This document shows, one piece after another, positions 11,486 through 40,054 of a DNA stretch of 64,000 nucleotides; position 1 is the first letter of the stretch; every line of letters begins with the position of its first letter. The DNA comes from an uncultured Bacilli bacterium (lineage in GTDB: Bacteria; Bacillota_I; Bacilli_A; RF39; UBA660). The position numbers and the translations under genes are program-made. Under the pieces are notes generated by a model, which had not been told where the DNA came from, did no database searches, and worked only from the letters and a program-made list of their open reading frames with translations. The stretch lies in contig CAKPLN010000001.1 in assembly GCA_934167665.1 (NCBI GenBank), positions 341,331 to 405,330 on the forward strand, read 5' to 3'.

Positions 11486-12420
11486 TAATCCCTTAACTCC
11501 TTTCCCGTTAATTCCAAAAATACATCATTTAACGTTGGTCTTTCGGAGTATATTGATAAATATTTAATTTTATTTTCTTTTAAATAATCTATTAGTCTAC
11601 CTAAATTATTTTTACCTCTATCATAAACTATAAATAAAACACCGTTTTCATAAGTCACTTCTTCTACATTTTTATCTTTCTTTATCCACCCTAAATCCTC
11701 TTCCTTAATAGCTGGCACTTCAATAGTAATTTTTTCTTCTATTTTAGCCAGTTTCTTTAATTCATCACAAGTACCTTCAGCAATTATTTTTCCTTTATCA
11801 ATAATAATTACTCTATCACATATCATTTCTACTTCTTCCATGTAATGTGTAGTATAGATTATTGTAGCTCCCTCTTCTTTTAATTTCTTTATTCCATCCA
11901 ATATACTATTTCTACTTTGAGGATCCACTGCTACCGTTGGCTCGTCTAAAAATATAATTTCTGGTTTATGGGCAATACCACAAGCTATGTTTAATCTTCT
12001 AAGTAAACCACCACTTAATTGCTTAGGATAAAACTTTTTAAAATCCCCCAAACCAACTAAGGCAATTGCTTCTTCTACATATTTGCTTCTTAACTCTTTA
12101 TCACTAATATACAAGCCACAAAAATAATCAATATTTTCCATTACTGTTAGCTCATCAAATACAGCTACATCTTGAAAAACAACACCTATTCTTCTTTTTA
12201 TATCATAAGCATTAGGGCTCATTTCCTTACCAAATATATTAATTTTACCCTCATACTTAAGTAAAGCTAAGATTGAATTTATAGTTGTTGTTTTACCACT
12301 ACCGTTAGGTCCTAATAAACCTAAAATCTCACCCTTCGTAACATTAAAAGATAAATTATTAACTGCTGTTATTTCCTTATACTTCTTTGTCAAATTACAA
12401 ACACTTATAACATTTTCCAT
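11485..12420 (-). CDS. ABC transporter ATP-binding protein
   Basis: Walker A GPNGSGKTT, signature LSGGLLRRL, Walker B IIFLDEPT. Confidence 0.9.
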   Translation of the reverse strand: MENVISVCNLTKKYKEITAVNNLSFNVTKGEILGLLGPNGSGKTTTINSILALLKYEGKINIFGKEMSPNAYDIKRRIGVVFQDVAVFDELTVMENIDYFCGLYISDKELRSKYVEEAIALVGLGDFKKFYPKQLSGGLLRRLNIACGIAHKPEIIFLDEPTVAVDPQSRNSILDGIKKLKEEGATIIYTTHYMEEVEMICDRVIIIDKGKIIAEGTCDELKKLAKIEEKITIEVPAIKEEDLGWIKKDKNVEEVTYENGVLFIVYDRGKNNLGRLIDYLKENKIKYLSIYSERPTLNDVFLELTGKELRD

Positions 12421-12621
12421 AAAATATATCTCCTATAAAATAACCTATATATTCATAATGTATACCATACTATTAAATAAATAGCTAATATATCGTTATC
12501 ATATAACATCAATTGTATGATGTCAACGTCATTTGACTATGCCATAAACTACTACCAATAATATATAAAAAAAAGTCCTAATATAATAAGACTTCAATAG
12601 AGAAAAAGTTAATAATTAGGC

Positions 12622-12912
12622 ATTTTTATGAATTAATAGAAAAATTAGTTAAAGATTAAAAAGTCATTATCCACGTTGATATGGATGGAGTAATCGCATC
12701 AACAAACCATACGACTTTGTTAACAAAAGACCCCTACTTACAAATATAAAAACTCTAAATAATATAAACAATTTAGAAAATGTAGAACTACATATATTAT
12801 CAAAAAGGAAAAGAATAAATTGTTCTTATTAATGATGATAATGAAATTTTAAAAACAATTCATAATAATTTAAAGGATGTAATTCTATATCAAGATTCAA
12901 AATTAGTTGACT
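12622..12912 (+). pseudogene. Decayed paralog of the HAD 5'-nucleotidase gene at 18357-18815
   Basis: HFYELIEKLVKD[TAA]KVIIHVDMDGVIAS...INDDNEILKTIHNNLKDVILYQDSKLVD. It is about 80% identical at the nucleotide level to the intact copy. The start codon is lost (AGG) and there are several stops. Confidence 0.6.
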
Positions 12913-12920
12913 AGAAAAAA

Positions 12921-13736
12921 CTATTTTTTAATACTATCAGTACCATCAATTCTAGAATGTGCTAAGACCTCATATAAATTAGAATTTAAACACGTTTTAA
13001 GTACATCGACATCATTTTTCGGCTTATTATCAATTAAATGATCAGAAAGAATATTCGCTAAAGGATAGCGTAACAAATAATTTACAAATCCCACATTTAA
13101 GTCATAATCATAAGTACTTACTAATTTAAGTTTACCCCTATCCAAATCATTAATGTCAATATCCCCAACTGTTCTATATAAATCTTCACAAGATAACTCA
13201 TACGAAACAGCCGAAAGCATTCTAGCTTCAAAATATACTCTATTACTTCTTCTAGTACTAATTAACGTATCAAACTCTTGCCTATCAAGATAGTTTTCTA
13301 ATTGTTTTTCAATATAAAAAGGAAATACTTCACAAAGAAAATCATATTCATGAGGAATAATTGGTGGACTAGATTTTCTATCAATATAATGAGCAAATTC
13401 ATGAGCTAACATAAAAATATCTCCATCATTACCCAAAAGGCGTATAAAGCATTTTTCACCTTCTACATCAAAAAAACTCTTTTTAGCCTCTCCAATAACA
13501 ATATCACCATTATCTATAGCTTCTAAAATCATATCATAATATTTATCACTATAATCTTTATAAAATAAAAGTACAAGATCCAAGGGATTATCTATAGTCT
13601 TTTCATAATCTCTTTTTTGATATTTTCCCTTAAAGCGATCAATTAATTGATAAATAAAATCTTCACTTAAAAATTTAGGAAGATAAGCTTCTTTTTTTAC
13701 TCTATCAACAAATATTTTATAAAAATCCTCTTTCAT
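12921..13736 (-). CDS. HExxH zinc-metallopeptidase-like protein
   Basis: MLAHEFAHYIDRK (HExxH) with a downstream Glu. The family is uncertain; ImmA/IrrE-like or WLM-like are the candidates. Confidence 0.4.
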   Translation of the reverse strand: MKEDFYKIFVDRVKKEAYLPKFLSEDFIYQLIDRFKGKYQKRDYEKTIDNPLDLVLLFYKDYSDKYYDMILEAIDNGDIVIGEAKKSFFDVEGEKCFIRLLGNDGDIFMLAHEFAHYIDRKSSPPIIPHEYDFLCEVFPFYIEKQLENYLDRQEFDTLISTRRSNRVYFEARMLSAVSYELSCEDLYRTVGDIDINDLDRGKLKLVSTYDYDLNVGFVNYLLRYPLANILSDHLIDNKPKNDVDVLKTCLNSNLYEVLAHSRIDGTDSIKK

Positions 13737-14047
13737 ATTACACTCCTAAGCAAAATTACAACCTCATTATAGCACAAGTCTAATAATCTATTTTACTTTT
13801 AAAACAAATTATTACACCAATAATTAATGCCATTATTCCTACAAGAATCCCTACATTATATAAAGAAGCTATTATAAATAGCATAAGAATCAGTAAAAAA
13901 AACAAAACTAATTTTATACAAAAAAACTAATCAATAAAAAAAAGAAACTCTAATATACTAAAGTTTCTTACAAAATTATCATAAAATTTTTTGATTACTA
14001 TTCATTTGATTATAGCTTGTACCACTAACATTATGGCTATAAATTGA

Positions 14048-14842
14048 TTAATTTTGTACACTACTATTATCACTAATCGATTGAGAATTTTGTTGGTAAT
14101 AATCTTGAGGCAAATTACCATTAATACGATTAATCTCAAAATCAATAAAATAATTTTCAGGGTTATTTTCATCAATTAATAAATCTACCATACCATCCGA
14201 ATCAAAAGTTTTCCGATCATATCTTGCATCACCATACAAGGTTACGTTAACTCCACTAGGTAATACATATTCAACAACAGGTCTTTGAATTTCAACTCCA
14301 TTTATAGCTGTTCCAGTATCTTCTAAACGATAAGGTAAATTTTTAATTAATTTTCCAGTTTGATTTAATTTTAATATTTCTTTTATTCTTTTGTTTGCTT
14401 TCATAATGTTTACAACTGCAATAACAATAGAAAAAATTGGTATTACCATAAATAGTAAGATTTTATTATCAGATGTAGAATACTCTACCACACAATTAGC
14501 AGGATTATCCAGATCATAATAAACAGTTTTATTACTATTACCGGGATTTCTACTTGATGAAAAATAAGATGGGCATACATAGCTTTCTCCATCATACTTA
14601 TATAAATAAACCGGTGAATACATAGTAGTTCCATCATCACTTTTATATGTTCTAACTTCAACATGCGTTGATGTTACACTTGAGTCTGAACTTTTTGGCA
14701 TAATAGTATTCGACACATATACCCGCCACATTAGAATCGTAAAGATTACCCCAATAAGAAAAAATATATAAAAAAATCTTCTACCTTTCGCTACATTCTT
14801 TACATTAATGTCATACATATAGCACACTACTCTACTATTCAA
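14048..14842 (-). CDS. Membrane protein, DUF3592-like topology (TM, beta-rich domain, TM, C-terminal domain)
   Basis: Only the hydropathy pattern and domain order support this; there is no sequence motif. Confidence 0.3.
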   Translation of the reverse strand: MNSRVVCYMYDINVKNVAKGRRFFYIFFLIGVIFTILMWRVYVSNTIMPKSSDSSVTSTHVEVRTYKSDDGTTMYSPVYLYKYDGESYVCPSYFSSSRNPGNSNKTVYYDLDNPANCVVEYSTSDNKILLFMVIPIFSIVIAVVNIMKANKRIKEILKLNQTGKLIKNLPYRLEDTGTAINGVEIQRPVVEYVLPSGVNVTLYGDARYDRKTFDSDGMVDLLIDENNPENYFIDFEINRINGNLPQDYYQQNSQSISDNSSVQN

Positions 14843-15028
14843 TGATATATTACAAATATATTATTGTCAATGTCATATAAACAAGCTAAAAGTATATCCA
14901 TCATAAAATAACTACATAAAAAATAGCACTAATCAAAACATAGATTAAGTGCTTTATCATACTCTTTATTTTATATCAATTTCCCTAACATACCCGTTAA
15001 AATATGTCAAAAATTATTCAATCATTTT

Positions 15029-15622: not shown

Positions 15623-16164
15623 TAAGTCTAACTCCTTTAAATTAATAAAATTATACCATATATCAATCGTTTTCTAAAGAACTATCTATCTGAAAAAAAT
15701 ATAAAAAGAATATGATAAAATGAATAATATAAGGAGATGTTAATATAAGTAAGGAAAAATCTTTTTATATTGATAAGCCTTTATTACAAAGAATAGTTTT
15801 ATTTTTAACTGGTTTTAGTAATTTTCTAATAGGTTATGCCCCATATTTTATATTTAAAGATGATAAATCAAAAGACTATCAAATAGAGTTTGTTTAAAAA
15901 GGTGCAGCTTTTGGTTTAGCATTTACCATAATTGGACTATTCCTTGGTTTAATTTCATCAATTTTATAAAATTAAATTAATCAATCACAAAAAATCTCGT
16001 TTAACTTATAAAAAGAAATGAGGTTTTTTTAATATTTTAAATAAACAAAATGATATAATAGAAACTGAAAGACAAATAGTAATTTGTAATTTAGTTCTCT
16101 CTTAATAGATTTGTATTAATAATTAAGAGGATAAAAAAATAATATTTTGTGTTAAATAGTAAAG

Positions 16165-16195
16165 TTGTTTACATTTTTAAAATGTAAAATATATT
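16165..16195 (+). promoter_or_regulatory. Promoter with an overlapping 20 bp palindrome (TTTACATTTT-AAAATGTAAA), a likely autoregulatory operator of the XRE gene
   Basis: TTGTTTACATTTTTAAAATGTAAAATATAT lies upstream of 16250. The palindrome arms are a perfect 10/10 match. Confidence 0.45.
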
Positions 16196-16249
16196 TGATA
16201 GTAAAATAATAATAAAAAATGTATAGTTTTTTGTGAGAGGAGAAAGATT

Positions 16250-16657
16250 ATGGATTTAGGCAAAAAAATTATTGAAATGAGAAAAAAAGCAAAACTTTCA
16301 CAAGAACAACTTGCAGAAAAACTAGATGTTACCAGACAAACTATATCTAATTGGGAAAATGGCAAATTTTATCCTGATATTGATGCATTAGTTAAAATTA
16401 GTAAATGTTTTAATATTTCGTTAGATGACTTACTAAGTTACGATAATAAAGTTTTGCAATATTTAAAAGATAGCACAGATGTTGTAAAAAGTAATAAGAA
16501 ATTGCTTTATGCGATTTTATTAAATATTCTAATTATTATTCTATTTATAATAATAGGAATAACTGCAAATGAAAGTATTTCAATTATAGTAATAGTATTT
16601 ACTATTTCTATTATTAGTTTTTCTTATTTATTTTATCAAATCATAAAAAAAATATAG
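16250..16657 (+). CDS. Membrane-tethered XRE-family regulator (HTH plus 2 C-terminal TM)
   Basis: HTH_XRE (LSQEQLAEKLDVTRQTISNWENG) followed by a hydrophobic C-terminus. Confidence 0.7.
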   Translation: MDLGKKIIEMRKKAKLSQEQLAEKLDVTRQTISNWENGKFYPDIDALVKISKCFNISLDDLLSYDNKVLQYLKDSTDVVKSNKKLLYAILLNILIIILFIIIGITANESISIIVIVFTISIISFSYLFYQIIKKI

Positions 16658-16666
16658 GAGGAAATT

Positions 16667-16990
16667 ATGAATTATATTTTATTAGCAATATTTATAGCAA
16701 TATATCTAATAGGTTTAGTTGCTACAATTTATCAAGTTTATAAAATAACTGTTATAGATTCAAAAGCAAGAGGAATTAGCCATCCAAAATTAATGGGATT
16801 ACTAGCAACCAGTGGTAAAAGTTCAGAAGGAATTATTCTTTATCTATTGCATAGAAGAAAATATCCAATAAAAAATATTTCGAAAGAAGAACAAAATGAA
16901 ATAGAAAGAAGAAAGAAAATTGTATTAGTAGGAATTATATTTATGATTATTGGTGCAATTGGATTTGTATTCTTTATAGTAAAAATATAA
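16667..16990 (+). CDS. Small 2-TM membrane protein, PLDc_N-like (putative)
   Basis: Strong ribosome-binding site AGGAGG 8 nt upstream of the start, 9 nt after the XRE stop. The loop HPKLMGLLATSGKSSEGIILYLLHRRKY resembles the PLDc_N motif. Confidence 0.35.
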   Translation: MNYILLAIFIAIYLIGLVATIYQVYKITVIDSKARGISHPKLMGLLATSGKSSEGIILYLLHRRKYPIKNISKEEQNEIERRKKIVLVGIIFMIIGAIGFVFFIVKI

Positions 16991-17025
16991 TCATATATAA
17001 TATTAAAAAATTGCAATTAATCGTC

Positions 17026-17055
17026 GAGATCAACTTTAATAGTTGGTCTTTTTTA
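17026..17055 (+). terminator. Rho-independent terminator of the XRE operon
   Basis: AGATCAAC-N7-GTTGGTCT followed by TTTTTT. Confidence 0.5.
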
Positions 17056-17109
17056 CTTTTTATAAATAGGATGATTTTATATATAAATATTAATATATGT
17101 AAAAAAGCA

Positions 17110-17217
17110 GAATAAGAAACTTGTGCAACTACACTAAACTTTTCCTTATTTCATAAGGGTTTAGTGTTACACAAGACTGATTTCGTACCGTTGACGTAGA
17201 GGTCTACGACTTTTTTT
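17110..17217 (+). ncRNA. Candidate small RNA: long imperfect hairpin (17120-17175) followed by an intrinsic terminator (17195-17217)
   Basis: CTTGTGCAACTACACTAAAC ... GTTTAGTGTTACACAAG inverted repeat, then ACGTAGAGGTCTACG plus T7. No ORF in the segment. An AT-rich stretch that could hold a -10 lies upstream. Confidence 0.25.
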
Positions 17218-17325
17218 CGGCAATAACAATTCATATGAATCAATCTATATAAATATTATCATAAAAAATTAAAGACTTTTATAAAAATTTATTGTATAAT
17301 TATAATTGAAAGGAGTAAGCTTAAT

Positions 17326-17559
17326 ATGGAAAAAGATAATAATAATGTAGTAAGATTTTTGTTAACATTCTTTTTAGGATGGATTGGTAGTATAATTATT
17401 AATCATACTAATTTAAAACCTGCAGGATATAGAAGTAGAACTGCAGCATATTTTTTCCTTACAATTGTTACTTTTGGAATTTATGGTCTTGTTGCTAGTA
17501 TTTGCAACTTAACATTTGATCCAAACAAATCTAGTAACATTGGATATGTTAAGGAATAA
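17326..17559 (+). CDS. TM2-domain-like small membrane protein
   Basis: Strong ribosome-binding site AGGAG. VRFLLTFFLGWIGSIIINHTNL...YFFLTIVTFGIYGLVASI resembles the TM2 domain. Confidence 0.4.
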   Translation: MEKDNNNVVRFLLTFFLGWIGSIIINHTNLKPAGYRSRTAAYFFLTIVTFGIYGLVASICNLTFDPNKSSNIGYVKE

Positions 17560-17602: not shown

Positions 17603-18249
17603 TTAAAAATCATCGTCTTTTGATTTAGAATCTCTATCTATTTCTGCAGATCTATTTTTAGTTTCTAATATACCTCTTATTTGTTCTTCATCTAAAATAT
17701 TCTTACCATATAATTCATAAGCAACTGGATAATATTTATCACGTTTTTCTTTATTACCCCACATTTTATCTACAAAGAAGTGATATAGATTGTTAATTTT
17801 ATTTTTATATTTTATAGATATTGTTAATCGTTACCAATAACTTTTATATTTATCTTCATAAATGTTATTATGTAAAGAAAAATCTGAATACATTCTACCT
17901 GAAATACCGCTACCACTTAAATAAACTTCAAAGGAAATGTTTTACCAATAAATTGTTTACCAAAATCATAATAATATGGTGTAGGTATTCCACTACCAGA
18001 TGTTGATTTTCCAAACACTCTTAAAATATCTTCATCTGTTAATTCTTTTTCTAAAATTATTTTTGTATTTCCAAATTTTCGTTTTGAATACAACATCTCA
18101 AAAATGTCTAAAATACTAGATTTTCCAATATTATTTTTTCCTATAATTACATTTATAGGTTTTATATTATTTATACATCCAGATTTAAAACATTTATAAT
18201 CTTCAAATTTAATACATTTTATATCCATACTAAACGCTCCTTCCAACAA
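17603..18249 (-). pseudogene. Remnant of an AAA/OLD-like (AAA_21-type) ATPase
   Basis: Intact N-terminal 110 aa with Walker A (IGKNNIGKSSILD) and the typical first strand (MDIKCIKFEDYKCF). It then continues in two other frames to 17603 with stops. There is no Walker B or nuclease part. Confidence 0.5.
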
Positions 18250-18356
18250 ATTTTTTAAGTATTATAACTTTATTTTGCCGTTTGTTTATTCATAATAATT
18301 CATTATTTTTATGTTATAATTAATATAGTTTTAGTTCTTAAGGAAAGAGGTACTAT

Positions 18357-18815
18357 ATGCATTTTTATGAATTAATTAAAAAATTAACTGAAGATAAAAA
18401 AACAATTATCTATGTTGATATGGACGGTGTAATTGCTTCTTATGATTTTGGAAAGCCACTTGATTTTAAAAATAAAAGACCTTTAACTACAAATATTAAA
18501 ACATTAAGTAAATTAAGCAATCTAAAAAATGTTGAACTACATATATTATCAGTTTGTAGATTTAATAATGAGGTAAATGAAAAAAATGAATGGTTAAATA
18601 AATATGCCCCATTTTTTGAAAAAGATAAAAGGACTATTATTCCAAAAGAAAGTTATCCGCATTATTCATCAAAAGAATTAAAATTAAATTATTTAAAATC
18701 ATTAAAAAATGATGAACAAATTATTTTTATTGATGATGACAATGAAGTTTTGAGAACTGTTCGTAATGGTTTGAAAAACATAATGTTATATCAAGATTCT
18801 GAATTAATAGATTAG
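18357..18815 (+). CDS. HAD-superfamily 5'(3')-deoxyribonucleotidase-like protein
   Basis: HAD motif I (IIYVDMDGVIAS) and a C-terminal FIDDD motif, an NT5C-like pattern. Confidence 0.55.
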   Translation: MHFYELIKKLTEDKKTIIYVDMDGVIASYDFGKPLDFKNKRPLTTNIKTLSKLSNLKNVELHILSVCRFNNEVNEKNEWLNKYAPFFEKDKRTIIPKESYPHYSSKELKLNYLKSLKNDEQIIFIDDDNEVLRTVRNGLKNIMLYQDSELID

Positions 18816-18830
18816 AAGAGAGAAATATAT

Positions 18831-19289
18831 ATGTTAAGTTATGAAGGAATATTTTTTGAAGCAGATATGGTTGATTTGATACATTCTTTAGAATCAGAAA
18901 AATTAGCCAGAGTTAATGATGAAATACATTGTACTTTTAAATATCATCCAACAACTGATGAAATTTTCAATGATATAGTTGGAAGAACATTTGAAGTATA
19001 TTTAATAGGTTATGGTAATGATGGGCAAAACAGTGGATTTGAAATATTATTTCCAGATGAATTAAAAGATTATTATATAAATTATGATGAACAAAATCCT
19101 ACAGTCTTAAAGACACCTCATATTACTGCATCACTAGCTGAAGGAGCAAAAGCATCAAATACAAAAAATCTTAATTTTAAACCCTTAGAAAAACCTGTTA
19201 AGTTAGTAGGAAGATTTGGTTATTGGATTAAAGGTGAGAATGAAGAATACTTATCTTATGAACCATATTCTAAAGGTAAAACAAGATAA
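18831..19289 (+). CDS. 2H phosphoesterase superfamily-like protein (LigT/YjcG-like), putative
   Basis: Two H-x-T-x motifs (HCTF near residue 33, HITA near residue 97) in a protein of about 150 aa. It is co-transcribed with the HAD gene (16 nt gap). Confidence 0.35.
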   Translation: MLSYEGIFFEADMVDLIHSLESEKLARVNDEIHCTFKYHPTTDEIFNDIVGRTFEVYLIGYGNDGQNSGFEILFPDELKDYYINYDEQNPTVLKTPHITASLAEGAKASNTKNLNFKPLEKPVKLVGRFGYWIKGENEEYLSYEPYSKGKTR

Positions 19290-19365
19290 TATTTTAATAC
19301 ACACGCTAATTGATTATGTCAATTTGCAAGTGCGTTTCTAAATTATCAAAATTTAGTATAAACAA

Positions 19366-19400
19366 AGAATACGACTAAGCAAAGTAGTCGTATTCTTTTT
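19366..19400. terminator. Strong rho-independent terminator (12 bp stem) after the HAD-2H operon
   Basis: AGAATACGACTA-agcaaag-TAGTCGTATTCT followed by TTTTT. Confidence 0.7.
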
Positions 19401-19606
19401 CTAGTATTTCTTCTTTAGACATATCTTTAAGAAATCTAAATCACTTATAAATATCATTTCATCTGCTACACAACTCTTAGAATCATCTACCATTTGATCA
19501 AATTCTCTATATCTATCTTGTCTAATAGTTTCCATTTTTTCGTCGTGTTCTTTTTTATATTCTTTAGTAATTTCATAAAACTTTTTCTATATTCAATATT
19601 TAATAA

Positions 19607-20152
19607 TTATATTTTATCTCCAATTTTATTAACTTCAATATTATCAATATAAGTACCAATTATTCTTTTCATTTCTTCTCTAGAAGCATTAATTAAATTT
19701 AAAATATTAGTTAAAAATATATCGGGATTAACAAAAGTATCAATTGTTTCTGTATCTTCTAAAATTAATAAATCATTAGTAGTAAAGTTAAGGTTTTCAC
19801 GTTGTTTAATTTCTTTAATCTTGTTATTAATGTTATCAATTTTATATCTAATACTTTTTAATTCGTTATCGAACTCATTCATTTTAACAACACCATTTAA
19901 GTAAGCACATTTAAATCTTTCTTCTTGGTTTTCATAGTCTTGGTTCATATAATCAATTACATGTGAAAAACAAGGTGTTGCTATATCATGAAAAAGCCCT
20001 GCTAATGTTGCTTTTTTATCTTTTGTTAATTTATAAACTATCAAACAAACTGTTAACGAATGATCATATCTACTTATATACTCTCTAAAATCATATATAT
20101 CTTTTGAAGCATCGTCCATTCCACAAAAATAACCAATATTTTTTAACCTCAA
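19607..20152 (-). CDS. HD-domain phosphohydrolase (YfbR-like 5'-deoxynucleotidase pattern)
   Basis: H...HD motif (DHSLTV ... GLFHDIATP). TTG start. A coding-like reading-frame continuation downstream (19420-19600) suggests a possible frameshift. Confidence 0.45.
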   Translation of the reverse strand: MRLKNIGYFCGMDDASKDIYDFREYISRYDHSLTVCLIVYKLTKDKKATLAGLFHDIATPCFSHVIDYMNQDYENQEERFKCAYLNGVVKMNEFDNELKSIRYKIDNINNKIKEIKQRENLNFTTNDLLILEDTETIDTFVNPDIFLTNILNLINASREEMKRIIGTYIDNIEVNKIGDKI

Positions 20153-20256
20153 TAAAGATGGAGTTTTTTAAATATTTAATAAGAAAATTGGGTAAGTTTG
20201 AATAATCAAGTTGCTCCAAGTAATATTGCAAATACATTTTTTCACCAACTTTCTAG

Positions 20257-20763
20257 TTATTTACTTATCATTTTTAAAGTTTTATTCATTTTTTCTAGAC
20301 AGTAATTATTTAATTCTTCATCACTATAATTCAATAATTTAGATAATGCTATTAAATAAGATAATAGTTTTAATAACTTTTCTTTATCTAGATTTATTGT
20401 TAATGAAGAAGCAAGTTTATTTGATTCTATAAATAACTTAACCATATCAGTTTCAGATATATCTTCTATTTGTATTTCTTCAATATTAGCTAAATCACAA
20501 AAACATAAAGTAATCATCAAGCAATCAGCAAACTCAGGTATTGTTATATCAGGGCTACTTTGTTTTTCATCTTTCCAATATTTAAAACACTTAGTTTCAT
20601 AAGCAAATTCACTTAATTCGCAAATTAATTCTAATACCTGTTTATAGAAAATTTCTTCATTTTCATAATCATATTTTTTTCTAAAATATGAATTTATTAT
20701 CTTTTCTTTTTCGTATATTTCTTTTAAGTTCATATAGCCATCCTTTCGATTAGTAACCACCAA
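20257..20763 (-). CDS. Hypothetical acidic helical protein; weak resemblance to MazG-like / dimeric dUTPase NTP pyrophosphatases
   Basis: The pattern ELICELSEFAYETKCFKYW is the only hint. Confidence is low. Confidence 0.2.
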   Translation of the reverse strand: MVVTNRKDGYMNLKEIYEKEKIINSYFRKKYDYENEEIFYKQVLELICELSEFAYETKCFKYWKDEKQSSPDITIPEFADCLMITLCFCDLANIEEIQIEDISETDMVKLFIESNKLASSLTINLDKEKLLKLLSYLIALSKLLNYSDEELNNYCLEKMNKTLKMISK

Positions 20764-20839
20764 TTGAATATATTATATCAGAAAATTATTGATTAGTCTT
20801 TAAATGGTAAATAAAAAAGAAAACAGTAGCATTGATACA

Positions 20840-21112
20840 TTATATTTCTATATCAAAATCGTCTTTTTCTTTGTTGTTATTGTGTTCTTTAGCAAACCTA
20901 TAGTAATCTCTAATATCTTCTATTGTTTCATCACTAAATATTCCATGCTCATATAATTCCTTTGAAAAGTGTATATAATCTTCTCGATCCTTTTCTTTTC
21001 CAAAGATTCGTTTTTTAATAAAGTTTACCAATCTATCAAATAAATTTTCAAAATAATTGATAGTTCTTTTTAATTCTTCACTTATTACAAGTTTTTTAGT
21101 TTCTATTGTCAT
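20840..21112 (-). CDS. Hypothetical protein
   Basis: 90 aa ORF with charged, helical character. Confidence 0.3.
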   Translation of the reverse strand: MTIETKKLVISEELKRTINYFENLFDRLVNFIKKRIFGKEKDREDYIHFSKELYEHGIFSDETIEDIRDYYRFAKEHNNNKEKDDFDIEI

Positions 21113-21141
21113 AACTCGATCACTTTCCTTTCTTAAATAAC

Positions 21142-21166
21142 AAAAAAACTAACTATTTCTAGTTAG
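21142..21166 (-). terminator. Terminator downstream of the tRNA pair
   Basis: On the minus strand, CTAACTA-GAAA-TAGTTAG followed by T7. A second 9 bp hairpin lies at 21179-21199. Confidence 0.55.
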
Positions 21167-21209
21167 CGTTTATTACTTAAACTCGAAAAGTTCGAGTTTC
21201 CTATCAATC

Positions 21210-21283
21210 TGGTGCCGAAAGACAGAATTGAACTGTCCGCTGATCCTTACCAAGGATCTGTTTTACCACTAAACTATATCGGC
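21210..21283 (-). tRNA. tRNA-Thr (anticodon GGU)
   Basis: Folded by hand: GCCGATA acceptor stem, GTTT/AAAC D-stem, GATCC-TTGGTAA-GGATC anticodon arm, GACAG-TTCAATT-CTGTC T-arm, ACCA end. 74 nt. Confidence 0.85.
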
Positions 21284-21351
21284 AACTACACATTTATATT
21301 ATCGTAAATACTATAAAAAAACAATTGTTAATTTACTTATTACTAAAAAAT

Positions 21352-21426
21352 TGGTGTTCAAGGCGGGAATCGAACCCACACCATTTCCTTCGGGGGGAAA
21401 TATTCTATCCATTAAAATACTTGAAC
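21352..21426 (-). tRNA. tRNA-Arg (anticodon CCG), with an unusual C at position 33
   Basis: Perfect GTTCAAG/CTTGAAC acceptor stem, TTTCC-CCCCGAA-GGAAA anticodon arm, GTGGG-TTCGATT-CCCGC T-arm, ACCA end. 75 nt. The D-stem is weak. Confidence 0.65.
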
Positions 21427-35422: not shown

Positions 35423-38400
35423 ATGGTAGAAATGGAAGTAAGAAAAGTAACAAAAGGTGTTGAATCTAACATGGTAGCTTTCGACTTTGAGCGTACACCA
35501 ATTACTCAAATCGCCGATTATATCATTATAACTGCCTCAAGAAACAATGCTTCAGATATTCATTTTGATCCACGTGATGAGAGCATGATGGTAAGATTCC
35601 GTATTGATGGTGACTTGCAAGATTATACAAATATTCCAAAACTTTACGAAAGAACCCTAACTACTCGTCTAAAACTTTTAGCTGGAATGAATATTACAGA
35701 ATCTCGTCTACCTCAAGATGGTGCCATAAAAGGTGAATTTGGTGGCCAATATCTTGATATGCGTGTTTCCTGTCTTCCACTTAACACAGGTGAAAAAATA
35801 GTTATTCGTATCTTAGATTATACAAGAAGTTTAAAAGGTGTTGAACATTTAGGATTCAATCAAACTAATTTAAAGAAAATCAAAAGAATGATGGGTGTCC
35901 CAAATGGTATCATTTTAGTTACTGGTGCTACAGGTTCTGGTAAATCTACGACAGTATATTCAATACTACAGGAATTAAATCGCCCTGAAACAAACATTAT
36001 TACTGTTGAAGACCCAATCGAAATGGACATCGAAGGAATGAATCAAGTTCAAGTAAATGCTGAAATCGGTATGACATTTGCCGCTGCTTTAAGATCTATT
36101 TTGCGTCAAGACCCAAATATTATACTAATAGGAGAAATTCGTGACTCAGAAACTGCTCAAATAGCAGTTCGTGCTTCAATAACAGGTCACTTAGTTCTAT
36201 CAACTATCCACACCAACAATGCCCTTTCAACAATTGAACGTTTACTAGATATGGATGTAGAGCGATACTTACTATCAACATCTCTTACTGGAATAATTGC
36301 TCAAAGACTTGCCAAAAAACTATGCACACATTGCCGCATAGAAAGAGAAACAACAAAATATGAAAAAAAAGTCTTTAAAAAATTCATGAATCGTGACATT
36401 GAAAAAATCTACGATGCCAACCCAAAAGGCTGTGAAAACTGCCGTAACGGTTATAAAGGACGTATCGCTGTTCACGAAGTCCTAGAAATTGATGATGAAA
36501 TTAGAAATGCTTTGGCCATTAATAAAATGACTAAAGAAGAACTATCTAAAATGGTATACGGATCAAAAACTATAACAATGCTTCAAGATGCCTTAGGAAA
36601 AGCTATATCAGGCCTAACAAGTTTTGAAGAAGTATACAGAGTAATAGAAATTGAAACAGAACCAGATGATGATACTGCTTATCTAACTAGAGCCATAGAA
36701 GATGTTCCAGAAGTAATTAAACCAACTTCACCAGTTCAGACAGCACCAAAAGCTACTGAAACTTCACCTTTACAAGTAACTCCAACAACAGTATCTACAA
36801 CTGTACCCGTAACAACTCCTGCTACAGTAGCTCCTTCAAAAGTCAGTACACCAGTTAATACTAATAAAGCTGTAAATACTCAAAATACTGAAATAAAAAC
36901 TCCAATTTTATTAACTAAAGAGCAAGAGCAGCAACAAGCAGAAAATGCCAAGACTAAATTAAAAGAACTAGTCGAAGCAGAAAATGCCAAAAAACTAGCT
37001 GAAGTAATATCAAAACCACAAGAAGTACAAAGAGCAAAGCTAGTTGTACAAGATCCAAAACTAAATCCAGTACCTGTACAAACAAAAACAAATACCGAAA
37101 ACGAAACACAAAATAAAGAAAAAGCTGCTGAACAGCCTATTCCTATTCCTATTCCTATTCCACCACAAAGATTATATCAATTACCTAGATCATCAAATGA
37201 ACAGTTACCTAAACAAGTAAAAACAACTTCACCTAAGATTGAAAAAATGGAGAAAGCTATTCCAGAGTTAAATATAAAAATTAAAACTAATGATAAGAAA
37301 GCTACAATAAAATCATTAAGTGGTTCACCAATATTTGAAAATAGTAACCTCTTTGAAGAAAAAGACAAAGTCAAAGCCATTGACCTTAATAAAATAAGTC
37401 AATCAATAGACTTAAAGAAAGAAGAAAAAGTTATTAATCCTCTAAAACCAACCGTTAAACCAGATGAAAGCAATGATAGAGGAAATAACATCCCTGTAAT
37501 TATTGAAACATTCTCAATAGATGACAGTCTAAGATCAGCTCCAAAGTTAAATGCCATCAAGCTTGATCAAATAAAAAATAATGAAACAGTTCCTACTACT
37601 AATAAAGAAAAAGTTGCAGTAAAAAAAGAAACAACAAATAACAGTACTGAAAAGTTCGAAATAGAAACACCAACAACAAATACAAGTAAGACTGATAATA
37701 AAGATAGTGAAAGGAAAGAACAAGTTGGAACAACAAGTATTAAACCAGTAGCCTCTAAAACCACTACTAAAAAAATAACTAAAGCTAATGTAGAAACTGT
37801 TAAACCTACTACTCCTGTAGTTGAACCAAAAGTAGTGCCTACTACCAAACCAATATTACAACAACCAGTAGTAAATACAGTTAAATCAGTAGTGCCTATT
37901 GTTAATACTCTAACTACAAAAGCTAATATTGAAACGGTTAAACCAACAGTTCCTATTACGAACCCTACAACTGCAAAAGTTAATATCGAAGCTGTTAAAC
38001 CTATAGCTCCTGTTACTACTCCTATAGCTACAAAAACTAATATTGAAACTGATAAACCTACTACTACTGAGGTTGTACCAAAAGTAGCGCCTACTACAAA
38101 ACCAGTATTGCGACAACCAGTAATAAATACAGTTAAATCAGTAGTGCCTATTGTTAATACTTTAACTACAAAAACCAATATTGAAGCTGTTAAACCTACT
38201 ATTCCTGTGATTGTACCAAAAGTAGCACCTACTACAAAACCAGTATTGCAACAACCAGTAATAAATACAGTTAAATCAGTAGTGCCTATTGTTAATACTT
38301 TAACTACAAAAGTTAATATCGAAGCTGTTAAACCTATAGCTCCTGTTACTACTCCTATAGCTACAAAAGCTAATATTGAAACTGTTAAACCTATAGCTCC

Positions 38401-40054
38401 TGTTACTACTCCTATAGCTACAAAAACCAATATTGAAACTGATAAACCTACTATTCCTGTGGTTGTACCAAAAGTAGCACCTACTGCAAAACCAGTATTA
38501 CAACAGCCAGTAGTAAATACAGTTAAATCAACAGTTCCTATTACTACACCTGCAGTTATTAAAACTAATGTTGATGTTAAACCTATAACTTCTGTTACTA
38601 CCCCTATAGCTGCAAAAGTTAATATCGAAACGGTTAAATCAACTACTCCTGTAGTTGAACAAAAAGTAGTACCTACTACAAATATTCCTATACCTAGTAT
38701 TGTATTGGAAACTAAACCTACTACTCCAACTACCTCAGTAGCAACTAGCACTAATAAAGGAAAAGAAGTAACACCTATAGACAAAGTAAAAACACCTATT
38801 CCTAATATCATAACAGAAGAAAAAATAAGTAATGATAAAAAAACAACTGTAATAAATTCACCAGTTAATTTAACATCGCAAGTTTTGCCTGAAGCAATCA
38901 CTAAAAAACCAACTGAAATCAAAACTGATGGTAAGAAGTTAGAATTTCCAACAACTAAAGTTCCAGAAAAGACTTTTCTAATAACTGATGCAAAAGTTAA
39001 TGTAATAAAGCCTACAGCTACACCTATGACATCTTCTCTCATAACAGAAGCAAAAACTAATAATACATTAACTCCAGCAACAAAAGAAATAAAACCACTT
39101 GTTACTGAAGCCAAAGTAGCACCTAACATTAAAACAGAGAAACAAATAAGTGACACAGATGCTTCTAAAATTAAAGCAATTTTAACCTCAACAGAGAAAA
39201 AACCATTTATAACTGAATTTAAGGCAACACCAACGACTGCATCACCATTAAAAACAATTGAAAAAAATTCTCTTATTGCCGAGGTTAAAACTACTACACC
39301 TCTAATATCTCAATCAATAAGTAAAACTCCTTTAGCTAGCCAAGCAAAAACATCGCTTGAGAAAAAACCTTTTATTACAGAAGCCAAGATTACTCCTACA
39401 AAACCAGTAAGTAGTACAATGCAACCTACAAAGGAAATACAAAAACCACTTGTTACTGAAATAAAACCAAATACAGTACCTCTTACAGAAATAAAAGTTG
39501 CTCCAAAGAGATCCTTTATTACTGAAGAAAAAGTTGTTCCTTTAAAATCTACTCCAACTATTCCAACTGTTGAGAAAAAGGAGTTAATTAAAGAAGTTAA
39601 AATGACTACTCCTATTAAACAAACAACTAATACAACGCCACTACCAAAAACGACACTTCCAGAAAAAAAGCCTCTCATAACAGAGACAAAGCCTAATGTA
39701 TTAGTAACACCAATCACAAAACCTCTTATCACTGAAGAGAAGATTAATCAGGTACCTAAAACAACTGCTCCTACACTTCCACCTATTGAGAAAAAACCAC
39801 TTGTTCCGAAAATAAAAAATAAGGAAGAAAAAATAGAAGTCAAAAAAGATAACAGTTCAATAAATATTACTGATAACAAAAACAAAGTAAATACTGCTTC
39901 TACTACACCAATTAAAACTATAACCCCAGCAGTTCAGGTACCAAAACAACAAGAAAATAAAATAGCAATCAAGAAAGAGCCAACTATTATGAAAAAAGCT
40001 GAAAAGTCTAATTCAGATACAGATAGTGACTTACCAATTTTAGGAGAAGATTAA
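35423..40054 (+). CDS. GspE/PilB/ComGA-family secretion ATPase (about 410 aa) fused to a Pro/Thr/Val/Lys-rich tandem-repeat tail of about 1130 aa
   Basis: Walker A GATGSGKST, Asp box TVEDPIE, RQDPNIILIGEIRD, His box TIHTNNA, and tetracysteine CTHC...CENC. The uninterrupted frame then runs 3.4 kb in AT-rich DNA and ends at a TAA. Confidence 0.85.
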   Translation: MVEMEVRKVTKGVESNMVAFDFERTPITQIADYIIITASRNNASDIHFDPRDESMMVRFRIDGDLQDYTNIPKLYERTLTTRLKLLAGMNITESRLPQDGAIKGEFGGQYLDMRVSCLPLNTGEKIVIRILDYTRSLKGVEHLGFNQTNLKKIKRMMGVPNGIILVTGATGSGKSTTVYSILQELNRPETNIITVEDPIEMDIEGMNQVQVNAEIGMTFAAALRSILRQDPNIILIGEIRDSETAQIAVRASITGHLVLSTIHTNNALSTIERLLDMDVERYLLSTSLTGIIAQRLAKKLCTHCRIERETTKYEKKVFKKFMNRDIEKIYDANPKGCENCRNGYKGRIAVHEVLEIDDEIRNALAINKMTKEELSKMVYGSKTITMLQDALGKAISGLTSFEEVYRVIEIETEPDDDTAYLTRAIEDVPEVIKPTSPVQTAPKATETSPLQVTPTTVSTTVPVTTPATVAPSKVSTPVNTNKAVNTQNTEIKTPILLTKEQEQQQAENAKTKLKELVEAENAKKLAEVISKPQEVQRAKLVVQDPKLNPVPVQTKTNTENETQNKEKAAEQPIPIPIPIPPQRLYQLPRSSNEQLPKQVKTTSPKIEKMEKAIPELNIKIKTNDKKATIKSLSGSPIFENSNLFEEKDKVKAIDLNKISQSIDLKKEEKVINPLKPTVKPDESNDRGNNIPVIIETFSIDDSLRSAPKLNAIKLDQIKNNETVPTTNKEKVAVKKETTNNSTEKFEIETPTTNTSKTDNKDSERKEQVGTTSIKPVASKTTTKKITKANVETVKPTTPVVEPKVVPTTKPILQQPVVNTVKSVVPIVNTLTTKANIETVKPTVPITNPTTAKVNIEAVKPIAPVTTPIATKTNIETDKPTTTEVVPKVAPTTKPVLRQPVINTVKSVVPIVNTLTTKTNIEAVKPTIPVIVPKVAPTTKPVLQQPVINTVKSVVPIVNTLTTKVNIEAVKPIAPVTTPIATKANIETVKPIAPVTTPIATKTNIETDKPTIPVVVPKVAPTAKPVLQQPVVNTVKSTVPITTPAVIKTNVDVKPITSVTTPIAAKVNIETVKSTTPVVEQKVVPTTNIPIPSIVLETKPTTPTTSVATSTNKGKEVTPIDKVKTPIPNIITEEKISNDKKTTVINSPVNLTSQVLPEAITKKPTEIKTDGKKLEFPTTKVPEKTFLITDAKVNVIKPTATPMTSSLITEAKTNNTLTPATKEIKPLVTEAKVAPNIKTEKQISDTDASKIKAILTSTEKKPFITEFKATPTTASPLKTIEKNSLIAEVKTTTPLISQSISKTPLASQAKTSLEKKPFITEAKITPTKPVSSTMQPTKEIQKPLVTEIKPNTVPLTEIKVAPKRSFITEEKVVPLKSTPTIPTVEKKELIKEVKMTTPIKQTTNTTPLPKTTLPEKKPLITETKPNVLVTPITKPLITEEKINQVPKTTAPTLPPIEKKPLVPKIKNKEEKIEVKKDNSSINITDNKNKVNTASTTPIKTITPAVQVPKQQENKIAIKKEPTIMKKAEKSNSDTDSDLPILGED
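37136..37159 (+). repeat. (CCTATT)x4 hexanucleotide microsatellite encoding PIPIPIPI
   Basis: Seen directly. The repeats are in frame. Confidence 0.9.
37780..38660 (+). repeat. Interleaved tandem repeats of 138 nt (46 aa) and 57 nt (19 aa) inside the ATPase-fusion gene
   Basis: The block CAACCAGTA(G/A)TAAATACAGTTAAATCAGTAGTGCCTATTGTTAATACT recurs at about 37863, 38115 and 38259. Each unit begins with K-x-N-I-E-x-V-K-P. Confidence 0.85.
39180..39800 (+). repeat. Second, looser repeat family (EKKP[FL]ITE[AEF]K units) in the C-terminal tail
   Basis: GAGAAAAAACC(A/T)TTTAT(A/T)AC(T/A)GAA recurs at about 39190, 39360, 39663 and 39788. Confidence 0.6.

What the first reader, a model, noticed from the sequence alone, without database searches (positions are those of the whole stretch)
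17603..21426. Nucleotide-metabolism accessory module beside a tRNA-Thr/tRNA-Arg pair, consistent with an island or prophage remnant, or candidate anti-defence genes
A cluster of small genes with a different character from the housekeeping context ends at two tRNA genes, which are common integration sites. The cluster holds:
- an operon of a HAD 5'(3')-deoxyribonucleotidase-like gene and a 2H phosphoesterase-like gene, closed by a strong terminator
- an HD-domain 5'-nucleotidase-like gene
- a candidate MazG-like gene and an unknown 90 aa gene
- the eroded N-terminal stub of an AAA/OLD-type ATPase, a family typical of abortive-infection and defence systems

The enzyme types (dNMP nucleotidase, 2H phosphodiesterase, HD hydrolase, NTP pyrophosphatase) are the classes that phages use to reshape nucleotide pools and, in some cases, to degrade nucleotide immune signals. 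The ATPase stub suggests that a former defence gene decayed here.

No integrase is present, so any mobile origin is old.
Basis: partly seen in the sequence, partly recalled or inferred. Interest (0 to 1): 0.6.

Follow-up and report, generated by a model that had tools for sequence, protein, structure and literature searches.

The report
Decayed hotspot with RNA-end-healing-like operon
The stretch beside the two tRNA genes is a mosaic of dead mobile-element and defence-gene debris mixed with three intact, lineage-wide chromosomal genes; two of them form an uncharacterised operon that probably removes 2',3'-cyclic phosphates from RNA ends or nucleotides, and nothing tested shows a phage or anti-defence origin for these genes.

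Summary
The genes and tRNAs are at the stated coordinates, in an uncultured low-GC gut Bacilli genome.

**Variable region.** In 13 related species with enough flank, the right flank up to tRNA-Arg(CCG)/tRNA-Thr(GGT) is conserved. Everything beyond tRNA-Thr differs, and one relative has a full large serine recombinase there.

**Debris**
- The "HD gene" is a chimeric pseudogene: about 80 HD codons fused to about 100 codons that look like a serine recombinase C-terminus. So "no integrase" is probably wrong.
- The ATPase is a 60-residue OLD/AriA/GajA-type stub.
- The 90 aa ORF is decaying among strains.

**Intact genes**
- A dimeric dUTPase (PF08761).

**Origin of the intact genes.** All three have hundreds of homologues at 68-99% identity in related gut Bacilli, in varied chromosomal contexts. 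The 2H gene has no phage or PADLOC match; the other two have no PADLOC match and only distant phage relatives (26-31% identity).

**Best reading.** An eroded integration hotspot. The operon most likely performs two-step removal of 2',3'-cyclic phosphate; this function is inferred. The anti-defence reading is not supported.

The parts
17603..17916 (-). Frameshifted debris downstream of the ATPase stub. It is a 53 aa ORF here and a 96 aa ORF in other strains.
   Evidence: Three-frame translation shows broken reading frames. The called gene length is 53 or 96 aa depending on the strain. There is no Pfam or PADLOC hit. Among strains the 53-codon ORF has 0 synonymous and 3 non-synonymous variable codons.
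17917..18249 (-). N-terminal stub (P-loop region only) of an OLD/AriA/GajA/AbiL-type ABC ATPase; a pseudogene.
   Evidence: AAA_15 E 7.6e-11 over profile positions 1-66 of 374. Matches to the retron Eco8 effector, PtuA and RecF cover their N-termini only. PADLOC AriA 8.8e-12, AbiLi, GajA and Old, all over positions 1 to about 60. The same stub is present in all strains that cover this stretch.
18357..18815 (+). Intact capless HAD phosphatase (152 aa), first gene of the operon. Its sequence motifs are NT5C-like and its architecture is like the Pnkp 3'-phosphatase domain.
   Evidence: - Invariant D21xD23, S65, K106/K109 and D126-128.
- NT5C E 3e-4, below the cut-off; phrog_415 'polynucleotide kinase' 2e-7.
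- The PDB profile hits dNT-1/2, but the cap segment is missing.
- AF2 model pLDDT 89.7.
18831..19289 (+). Intact 2H phosphoesterase (152 aa), CNPase-like by fold, from a family not covered by Pfam, NCBIfam or PHROGs.
   Evidence: - No profile hit.
- Invariant H33-C-T-F-K-Y and H97-I-T-x-S.
- AF2 model pLDDT 88.3, pTM 0.83.
- hhalign to the human CNPase catalytic domain puts both HxT motifs in register, E 0.055.
- 394 clusters at 50% identity.
19364..19398 (.). Strong hairpin terminator between the convergent operon and the pseudogene.
   Evidence: 14-bp stem with 4 GC pairs and a T-run. The region holds 6 terminator-like sites against 0.7 expected. It is inverted repeat I23.
19560..19906 (-). 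Probable remnant of the C-terminal region of a large serine recombinase, fused in frame to the HD stub.
   Evidence: - phrog_95 integrase E 3.4e-4 and 6e-4, profile positions about 470-560 of 651.
- 29% identity to residues 376-469 of the bona fide recombinase in L015.
- 67% identity to an ORF directly after tRNA-Thr in L017. That ORF is itself colinear with the last 172 residues of the L015 recombinase.
- Homology continues past the stop codon (IEYRKSF).
19907..20240 (-). N-terminal part of an HD-domain hydrolase; a pseudogene, frameshifted near 20160 and truncated after the HD motif.
   Evidence: PF01966 E 1.4e-5 over residues 28-73 only. The upstream frame encodes MYLQYYLEQLDYSNLPNFLIKYLK, which joins LLRLKNIG across an A-run. 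Six of ten strains carry a 1-bp deletion at 20028 that shortens the ORF to 113 aa. A premature stop is polymorphic.
20257..20733 (-). Intact dimeric (all-alpha) dUTPase, 158 aa.
   Evidence: PF08761 E 1.5e-16, 61.5 bits against a 22.9 cut-off, covering positions 1-151 of 162. phrog_173 NTP pyrophosphohydrolase. 172 homologues at 73-99% identity, named 'dUTP diphosphatase [Bacilli bacterium]'.
20840..21112 (-). 90 aa ORF of unknown function, apparently decaying.
   Evidence: No family hit and no phage match. It is called as 42 aa in several strains. Among strains it has 0 synonymous and 6 non-synonymous variable codons, one of them a premature stop.
21210..21283 (-). tRNA-Thr(GGT). Its 3' end faces the block, and it is the pivot where synteny breaks.
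   Evidence: ARAGORN and Rfam. It is conserved next to tRNA-Arg(CCG) in related species. No repeat of its 3' end occurs in the window.
21352..21426 (-). tRNA-Arg(CCG).
16049..17559 (+). Left part of the strain-conserved block: an XRE-type HTH protein with a membrane tail, a 107 aa membrane protein, and a DUF4234 protein with a structured leader.
   Evidence: One strain (L005) has a different left flank, with the breakpoint at window 16049. HTH_3 E 2.4e-19 and DUF4234 E 4.6e-6.

Best explanation
The stretch is an eroded recombination and integration hotspot just downstream of tRNA-Thr(GGT) in an uncultured low-GC gut Bacilli genome.

It mixes two kinds of sequence:
- **Dead debris.** A defence-type ABC-ATPase stub. 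A chimeric pseudogene in which the 5' part of an HD hydrolase gene is fused to what is probably the 3' part of a large serine recombinase gene. A decaying 90 aa ORF.
- **Intact genes typical of this bacterial lineage.** A dimeric dUTPase that keeps dUTP low. A two-gene operon encoding a capless HAD phosphatase and a CNPase-like 2H phosphoesterase.

Proposed mechanism of the operon (inferred, not shown):
1. The 2H enzyme uses its two HxT histidines to hydrolyse a 2',3'-cyclic phosphodiester to a 2'- (or 3'-) phosphomonoester. The substrate would be an RNA or oligonucleotide 3' end, or less likely a 2',3'-cNMP.
2. The HAD enzyme removes that monoester through an aspartyl-phosphate intermediate on D21. 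This restores a 2',3'-diol end, or a nucleoside.

That would be housekeeping 3'-end healing or clearance of products of metal-independent RNases, not phage counter-defence.
For: Shown:
- Folds and catalytic motifs of both operon proteins.
- Operon structure and terminator.
- The HAD-2H pair is adjacent, in the same order, in at least 7 other loci with different surroundings: L104/L105, L106, L107, L109, L121, L130.
- Both genes are conserved at 68-99% identity with invariant active sites across hundreds of clusters.
- The HAD and dUTPase genes show no indel or premature stop among the ten strains, whereas the HD/recombinase chimera and the 90 aa ORF do. The 2H gene is uninformative here, because the strains were selected for an identical 2H protein.
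- Hotspot: synteny ends at tRNA-Thr in 13 species, and a recombinase or relaxase sits there in relatives.
- In three species a tRNA-Thr(GGT) lies on the opposite strand a few kb (about 1.4 to 6.4 kb) beyond the HAD gene or HAD-2H pair, with different inserts between them. The inserts are FGase in L106, SLFN/AlbA_2 in L097, and additionally Abi_2 plus CBASS in L098.

From the literature:
- 2H enzymes ThpR, CNPase and Trl1-CPD open RNA>p or cNMP to 2'-phosphate (PMC4201822).
- The T4 Pnkp HAD domain removes 2'-, 3'- and cyclic phosphates from RNA ends (PMC3592404).

Supporting association: a distant homologue carrying this 2H domain lies directly upstream of a CCA-adding enzyme/HD gene, which is a tRNA 3'-end repair function.
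Against: - No biochemical data exist.
- The pairing is not universal. The 2H gene is alone in L091-96, L099, L108 and L110-129, and the HAD gene is alone in L097/98.
- No kinase or ligase partner is nearby.
- The recombinase-remnant call rests on weak similarity: 19.5-20.3 bits to PHROG, 29% identity, and no hit in the phage or plasmid databases.
- A decayed second HAD copy at 12.6 kb hints that the current operon copy could have been acquired laterally from a relative.
Confidence: 0.55

Rival explanations
1. Mononucleotide salvage or pool control. The 2H enzyme opens free 2',3'-cNMPs and the HAD enzyme acts as a 5'(3')- or 2'/3'-nucleotidase. Together with the dUTPase this would be a small nucleotide-housekeeping cluster, with no role at RNA ends.
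Against: The HAD protein lacks the helical cap that encloses nucleotides in dNT-1/2. From established knowledge of HAD families (Burroughs et al. 2006, recalled), capless HADs usually take macromolecular ends. The top structural neighbours are polynucleotide phosphatase domains. The dUTPase is not linked to the operon in other species.
Confidence: 0.25
2. The whole block is cargo of an old prophage or island, and the 2H, HAD, HD and dUTPase genes are phage-style pool-reshaping or anti-defence enzymes that degrade immune signalling nucleotides.
For: - The site is tRNA-adjacent and variable, and holds a probable recombinase remnant and a defence ATPase stub.
- GC is lower than in the flanks.
- There is a second, dead HAD copy.
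- In L104 the pair sits beside HTH and SSB genes.
- Distant 2H-domain relatives are fused to the Csx3 ring nuclease, an Acb1-like 2H domain, HD, NUDIX or DUF4116, which resembles polyvalent-protein architecture (PMC5512222).
Against: - The 2H protein has no hit in the phage genome set or IMG/VR. The HAD and dUTPase proteins have only 26-31% relatives there.
- No PADLOC hit.
- Acb1 and the viral PDEs are distant in structure.
- Homologues sit among housekeeping genes, with no recurrent mobile neighbour.
- No att repeat.
- No phage structural genes.
Confidence: 0.12
3. The HAD and 2H genes are functionally unrelated enzymes whose adjacency here is a by-product of the heavy gene-order shuffling in these reduced genomes.
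For: In most of the more distant loci the two genes are apart. Neighbours are otherwise random.
Against: The same order, strand and a short gap of 11-22 nt (110 nt in L130, where the 2H match is partial) recur in seven or more loci with unrelated flanks, spanning 57-91% identity. The two chemistries are complementary.
Confidence: 0.08

Closest known systems
CNPase catalytic domain / Trl1-CPD branch of the 2H phosphoesterase superfamily (also ThpR/LigT)
   Same: It has the two-lobed 2H fold and two HxT motifs on adjacent strands, H-C-T-x-K-aromatic and H-I-T, which align with CNPase HCTTKF and HITLG. The expected chemistry is hydrolysis of 2',3'-cyclic phosphate to a 2'-phosphate.
   Different: It is 152 aa against about 215, with no P-loop kinase or ligase domain. 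It has no significant sequence match to any Pfam 2H model, including CNPase, LigT_PEase and 2_5_RNA_ligase2. It lacks the Arg of the ThpR HxTxxR motif (PMC4201822). It is bacterial, from gut Bacilli.
T4 / Capnocytophaga Pnkp 3'-phosphatase domain (HAD, DxDxT)
   Different: It stands alone, with no 5'-kinase domain. Motif I is DMDGV rather than DxDxT. There is no associated ligase or Hen1.
5'(3')-deoxyribonucleotidase family (NT5C, PF06941; dNT-1/dNT-2)
   Same: It has the DMDGV motif and these are its only sequence-level relatives.
   Different: Its score is below the Pfam gathering cut-off, the helical cap of about 40 residues is missing, and it is 152 aa against about 200.
Phage anti-CBASS Acb1 and viral 2'-5' phosphodiesterases
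   Different: There is no Pfam Acb1 match. The gene is not phage-encoded and has no phage homologues. These proteins are structurally much further away than CNPase.
tRNA-adjacent genomic islands / large-serine-recombinase elements
   Same: The site is variable and lies downstream of a tRNA. It keeps a probable recombinase remnant, relatives have an intact recombinase or relaxase there, and a defence-gene stub is present.
   Different: There is no intact recombinase, no att repeats and no element boundaries. The intact genes are lineage-wide chromosomal genes rather than cargo.

Membership tests
2H phosphoesterase superfamily | Two H-x-T/S-x motifs | tested here: met
   H33-C-T-F and H97-I-T-A are invariant in 22 sequences at 68-93% identity and are kept in distant relatives.
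2H phosphoesterase superfamily | Bilobed alpha+beta fold with the motifs on central strands | tested here: met
2H phosphoesterase superfamily | Match to a curated sequence model (LigT_PEase, 2_5_RNA_ligase2, CNPase, Acb1) | tested here: not met
   There is no Pfam, NCBIfam or PHROG hit at E up to 0.1. hhalign to CNPase gives E 0.055.
2H phosphoesterase superfamily | Cyclic phosphodiesterase activity | not testable with these tools
   This needs an enzyme assay.
Acb1 anti-CBASS nuclease | Phage-encoded, matches PF23474, and is close in structure to Acb1 | tested here: not met
HAD (DxDxT/V) phosphatase superfamily | Motifs I-IV on a Rossmann-like core | tested here: met
NT5C 5'(3')-deoxyribonucleotidase (PF06941) | Score above the Pfam gathering threshold and presence of the helical cap | tested here: not met
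   21.0 bits against a 24.8 cut-off. The cap segment is absent in the profile alignment and in the model.
Pnkp-type polynucleotide 3'-phosphatase | Capless HAD domain structurally matching the Pnkp phosphatase | tested here: met
Pnkp-type polynucleotide 3'-phosphatase | Fused or adjacent 5'-kinase, and the DxDxT motif | tested here: not met
   It is a single 152 aa domain, motif I ends in V, and no kinase lies in the block.
Dimeric dUTPase (PF08761) | Full-length match above the gathering score | tested here: met
   61.5 bits against 22.9, covering positions 1-151 of 162.
OLD/AriA/GajA-type ABC ATPase (AAA_15) | Complete ATPase with Walker B, signature motif and effector domain | tested here: not met
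   Only profile positions 1 to about 66 are matched, and the reading frames are broken downstream. It is a pseudogene stub.
Large serine recombinase | N-terminal resolvase catalytic domain plus recombinase domain | tested here: not met
   Only the C-terminal region is recognisable (phrog_95 positions about 470-560). It is a remnant, not a gene.
tRNA-linked genomic island or prophage | Variable among relatives and adjacent to the tRNA 3' end | tested here: met
tRNA-linked genomic island or prophage | Flanking direct repeat of the tRNA 3' end, intact integrase, phage structural genes | tested here: not met
   There is no repeat, only a recombinase remnant, and no phage structural family.

The most novel reading that the evidence does not exclude
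The HAD-2H operon is an undescribed minimal bacterial RNA 3'-end healing system: a stand-alone Pnkp-like phosphatase plus a CNPase-like cyclic phosphodiesterase, with no kinase or ligase. It would restore 2',3'-OH ends on tRNAs or other RNAs cut by metal-independent RNases or toxins. It belongs to a 2H family that is absent from the domain databases searched here. Elsewhere the same 2H domain is fused to Csx3, HD, NUDIX or a second 2H domain, or sits next to a CCA-adding enzyme. The family may therefore also clear >p-ended products of cyclic-oligoadenylate signalling.
Probability: 0.3. Interest if true: 0.55.

Novelty: new member of a known kind. Interest (0 to 1): 0.35.

Why it matters
One is an ordinary, eroded integration hotspot beside a tRNA pair. 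The other is a pair of well-conserved but unannotated enzymes typical of an uncultured, reduced-genome gut lineage.

The 2H protein defines a family of about 400 clusters at 50% identity that Pfam, NCBIfam and PHROGs all miss. Its closest structural relative is CNPase and the tRNA-ligase healing domain.

If the two-step cyclic-phosphate removal is real, it would be a compact bacterial counterpart of Pnkp/Trl1 end healing. It would also be a simple annotation fix for hundreds of 'hypothetical' genes in gut metagenomes.

Tried and rejected
- **att site.** I searched for a repeat of the tRNA-Thr 3' end with up to 3 mismatches and found none. The only tRNA-like direct repeat is 19/22 nt, 17931-17952 against the 5' half of the tRNA. 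It is on the wrong half for an att site and is probably chance.
- **Phage origin.** tblastn against phage genomes gave nothing for the 2H protein and the 90 aa ORF, and only 26-31% hits for the HAD and dUTPase proteins. An IMG/VR scan for the 2H family found nothing. PADLOC had no hit for any intact gene.
- **Recombinase remnant.** tblastn against phages and plasmids found no match. The call therefore rests on the PHROG profile and on the related loci.
- **HD subfamily.** PDB and NCBIfam gave only marginal hits to PhnZ and the NadD-HD protein. No 5'-nucleotidase assignment is possible.
- **Conserved neighbour of the 2H gene.** None was found among 74 flanking ORFs.
- **Rfam.** Only the two tRNAs reached threshold.
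- **AFDB fold search.** The library was not available.
- **Pfam on ORFs inserted between the tRNAs, or after tRNA-Thr, in relatives.** Mostly no hits.

Full report
**Organism and setting.** The window has about 27% GC, and nearly all genes are on the minus strand. Flanking proteins find their best relatives (up to 84% identity) in MAGs labelled uncultured Bacilli, Tenericutes or 'Mycoplasma sp. CAG:877' from gut samples. The block occurs with about 99% nucleotide identity in at least ten independent gut metagenome contigs. It is therefore not an assembly artefact.

**Check of the observation.** ARAGORN and Rfam confirm tRNA-Thr(GGT) at 21210-21283 and tRNA-Arg(CCG) at 21352-21426, both on the minus strand. 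The listed ORFs exist.
- The two 152 aa ORFs on the plus strand are 15 nt apart, each with a ribosome-binding site. A 14-bp-stem terminator at 19364-19398 follows them.
- Region 16-21 kb has 21-25% GC against 27-29% in the flanks, and its GC skew is broken.

**The 2H gene (18831-19289).** No Pfam, NCBIfam, PHROG or PADLOC model matches it.
- It has 408 homologues in the word-indexed search. In the exhaustive search it has 394 clusters at 50% identity.
- In 22 aligned sequences at 68-93% identity, H33-C-T-F-K-Y-H-P and P-H97-I-T-x-S are invariant.
- An AlphaFold model built on that alignment has pLDDT 88.3 and pTM 0.83, with both motifs in beta strands.
- After checking a recalled CNPase sequence against PDB entry 1woj, hhalign placed both HxT motifs in register with CNPase HCTTKF and HITLG. 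The match is non-significant, E 0.055.

The family is a divergent, unannotated one and is nearest in structure to CNPase.

**The HAD gene (18357-18815).** All four HAD motifs are invariant.
- Sequence relatives are 5'(3')-deoxyribonucleotidases, but only weakly: Pfam NT5C is below its cut-off and the PDB profile gives E 7e-4.
- The profile alignment and the model (pLDDT 89.7) show that the helical cap of dNT-1/2 is missing.

**The 'HD gene' (19607-20152).** This is a chimeric pseudogene.
- Only residues 28-73 match HD.
- An upstream reading frame (MYLQYY...IKYLK) joins it across a frameshift in an A-run.
- Residues 83-179 match PHROG integrase phrog_95, positions about 470-560 of 651, at E 3-6e-4. 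They are 29% identical to residues 376-469 of a bona fide 583 aa large serine recombinase (Resolvase plus Recombinase domains). That recombinase lies about 600 bp after tRNA-Thr in related species L015.
- The same residues are 67% identical to an ORF that starts 65 bp after tRNA-Thr in L017. That ORF is colinear with the last 172 residues of the L015 recombinase. Homology to it continues past the window ORF's stop codon.
- Six of ten strains carry an extra 1-bp deletion at 20028, and premature stops are polymorphic.

A recombinase remnant is therefore probably present, contrary to 'no integrase'. tblastn of the remnant against phages and plasmids found nothing, so I hold this call at about 0.7.

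**Other members of the block.**
- The ATPase ORF matches only the first ~60 positions of AAA_15, AriA, AbiLi, GajA, Old and PtuA. Broken frames follow it.
- The 90 aa ORF has no relatives in the family libraries or the phage genome set, and it is truncated in several strains.
- The 'MazG-like' gene is an intact dimeric dUTPase (PF08761, 61.5 bits). It has 172 homologues at 73-99% identity, named dUTP diphosphatase.

**Is it an island?** I fetched loci around the acyl-CoA synthetase gene three genes to the right of the tRNAs in GTDB species representatives.
- In about 20 species the order CinA, racemase, acyltransferase, AMP-binding, acyltransferase, hydrolase, DUF1003, lipoprotein, tRNA-Arg(CCG), tRNA-Thr(GGT) is kept.
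- In the 13 species with at least 3.8 kb beyond tRNA-Thr, the downstream genes differ in every case. None carries the HAD, 2H, dUTPase or 90 aa genes.
- Mobile genes occur there: the recombinase in L015 and a Mob_Pre relaxase in L017.
- Several species have insertions between the two tRNAs or just before them.
- One conspecific strain has a different left flank, with a breakpoint at window 16049.
- No repeat of the tRNA 3' end was found. That is expected if serine recombinases rather than tyrosine integrases were involved (inference).

The site is a real hotspot and synteny breakpoint.

**The intact genes do not behave like cargo.** Homologues of the 2H gene sit in these contexts:
- after ScpA/ScpB (L099);
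- after TrpRS (L094);
- near RNase III, SpoU, SmpB and RNase R (L091);
- next to the HAD gene near RecA and DAGK (L104), or between desulfoferrodoxin and FGase (L106).

The HAD gene occurs alone next to CorA (L097/98). dUTPase homologues are in yet other contexts.

Among 74 ORFs flanking 2H homologues in 22 loci, no Pfam family recurs more than twice. No integrase or phage family appears among the 25 most frequent families listed. The phage, IMG/VR and PADLOC searches were negative or distant, and BFVD structural matches were weak.

In three species (the window, L106 and L097/98) a tRNA-Thr(GGT) lies on the opposite strand a few kb beyond the HAD or HAD-2H genes, with different genes in between. 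In L098 these include an Abi_2 plus CBASS insert that is absent from L097. With one such tRNA per genome of roughly 1.5 Mb, this recurrence is unlikely by chance (inference). It suggests that the operon is an old neighbour of the hotspot rather than its cargo.

A caveat is a decayed second HAD copy at 12620-12912, with stops, a frameshift and a deletion of about 45 codons. It is 64-72% identical to all homologues, not specifically to the intact copy. This leaves room for lateral replacement among relatives.

**Mechanism.**
- Shown: both operon proteins have complete catalytic motifs and confident folds. They are adjacent in the same order, with a short gap of 11-22 nt (110 nt in one locus with a partial 2H match), in seven or more loci with unrelated flanks.
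- From the literature: ThpR, CNPase and Trl1-CPD-type 2H enzymes open 2',3'-cyclic phosphates to 2'-phosphates (PMC4201822). The Pnkp HAD domain removes 2'-, 3'- and cyclic phosphates from RNA ends (PMC3592404). 2H domains in general process >p RNA ends, cyclic nucleotides or 2'-5' linkages (PMC5512222).
- Inferred: the operon removes 2',3'-cyclic phosphate in two steps, most likely at RNA or oligonucleotide 3' ends. The reasons are the capless HAD and the Pnkp-like neighbours. In addition, one distant double-2H homologue lies directly upstream of a CCA-adding enzyme/HD gene.
- Main rival: a mononucleotide route (2',3'-cNMP to NMP to nucleoside), because motif I is NT5C-like.
- Not excluded for the wider family: a signalling-nucleotide role. 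Distant relatives are fused to the Csx3 ring nuclease, an Acb1-like 2H domain, HD and NUDIX. Nothing supports that role for this chromosomal copy.

**Verdict.** The HD gene and the 'no integrase' statement need correction. The island reading holds for the site and its debris, but not for the intact enzymes. The anti-defence idea is not supported. Novelty is modest: new, unannotated members of known superfamilies in a plausible end-healing pairing, inside an ordinary eroded hotspot.

Noticed in passing
window 12620-12912 (+): A decayed paralogue of the HAD gene lies between the ABC transporter and the 271 aa gene. It is 73-76% identical in nucleotides to 18343-18817, with in-frame stops, a frameshift and an internal deletion of about 45 codons. 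It is equally distant (64-72% aa) from all homologues.
   Followed up: partly
window 17120-17215 (+): A long hairpin plus a terminator-like stem and T-run lie in the leader of the DUF4234 membrane-protein gene. MFE is -29.8 kcal/mol, z -2.76. There is no Rfam match, so this may be an attenuator or an unknown riboswitch.
   Followed up: partly
window 16049; locus L005 1-7217: One conspecific strain has a completely different left flank (CdaA, RNase R, NlpC/P60, HAD, HTH-VanZ) that joins the block exactly at window 16049, just after a terminator-like hairpin.
   Followed up: partly
L011 14476-15192, L013 15049-15777, L038 14484-15218: In three related species an ORF of about 240 aa with no Pfam hit is inserted between tRNA-Arg(CCG) and tRNA-Thr(GGT). 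In other species (L015, L016, L027) the stretch between the lipoprotein gene and tRNA-Arg is 1-3.8 kb longer than in the window.
   Followed up: partly
L098 10831-14418 compared with L097: Two assemblies of another species carry an identical HAD protein and the same left flank. They differ by an Abi_2 plus CBASS (SMODS/AGS_C plus SLATT_4) insert between the HAD gene and tRNA-Thr(GGT). This is a live defence-island polymorphism at the equivalent site.
   Followed up: no
P0182, P0187, P0200, P0122; loci L134-L137: Distant relatives of the 2H domain (35-62% identity) are fused to Cas_csx3, a second Acb1-like 2H domain, HD with DUF4116, or NUDIX. P0187 sits directly upstream of a CCA-adding enzyme/HD gene. 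That contig also has LAGLIDADG endonucleases and giant glycosyltransferases, so it may be from a giant virus or megaphage.
   Followed up: partly
window 13867-14184 and 14733-14857: The DUF3592-like gene (14048-14842) is the most strain-variable segment of the left flank. It is called as 128-264 aa in different strains.
   Followed up: no
window 35423-40054 (+): A 1543 aa ORF lies on the otherwise rarely used plus strand. It has raised GC (31-35%) and a strong AT skew (up to 0.36), with long antisense ORFs inside it. I did not examine it.
   Followed up: no
L014, L022, L023, L028, L029 about 12300-14600: Several related species carry a tandem duplicate of the AMP-binding/acyltransferase gene pair that is single-copy in the window.
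   Followed up: no
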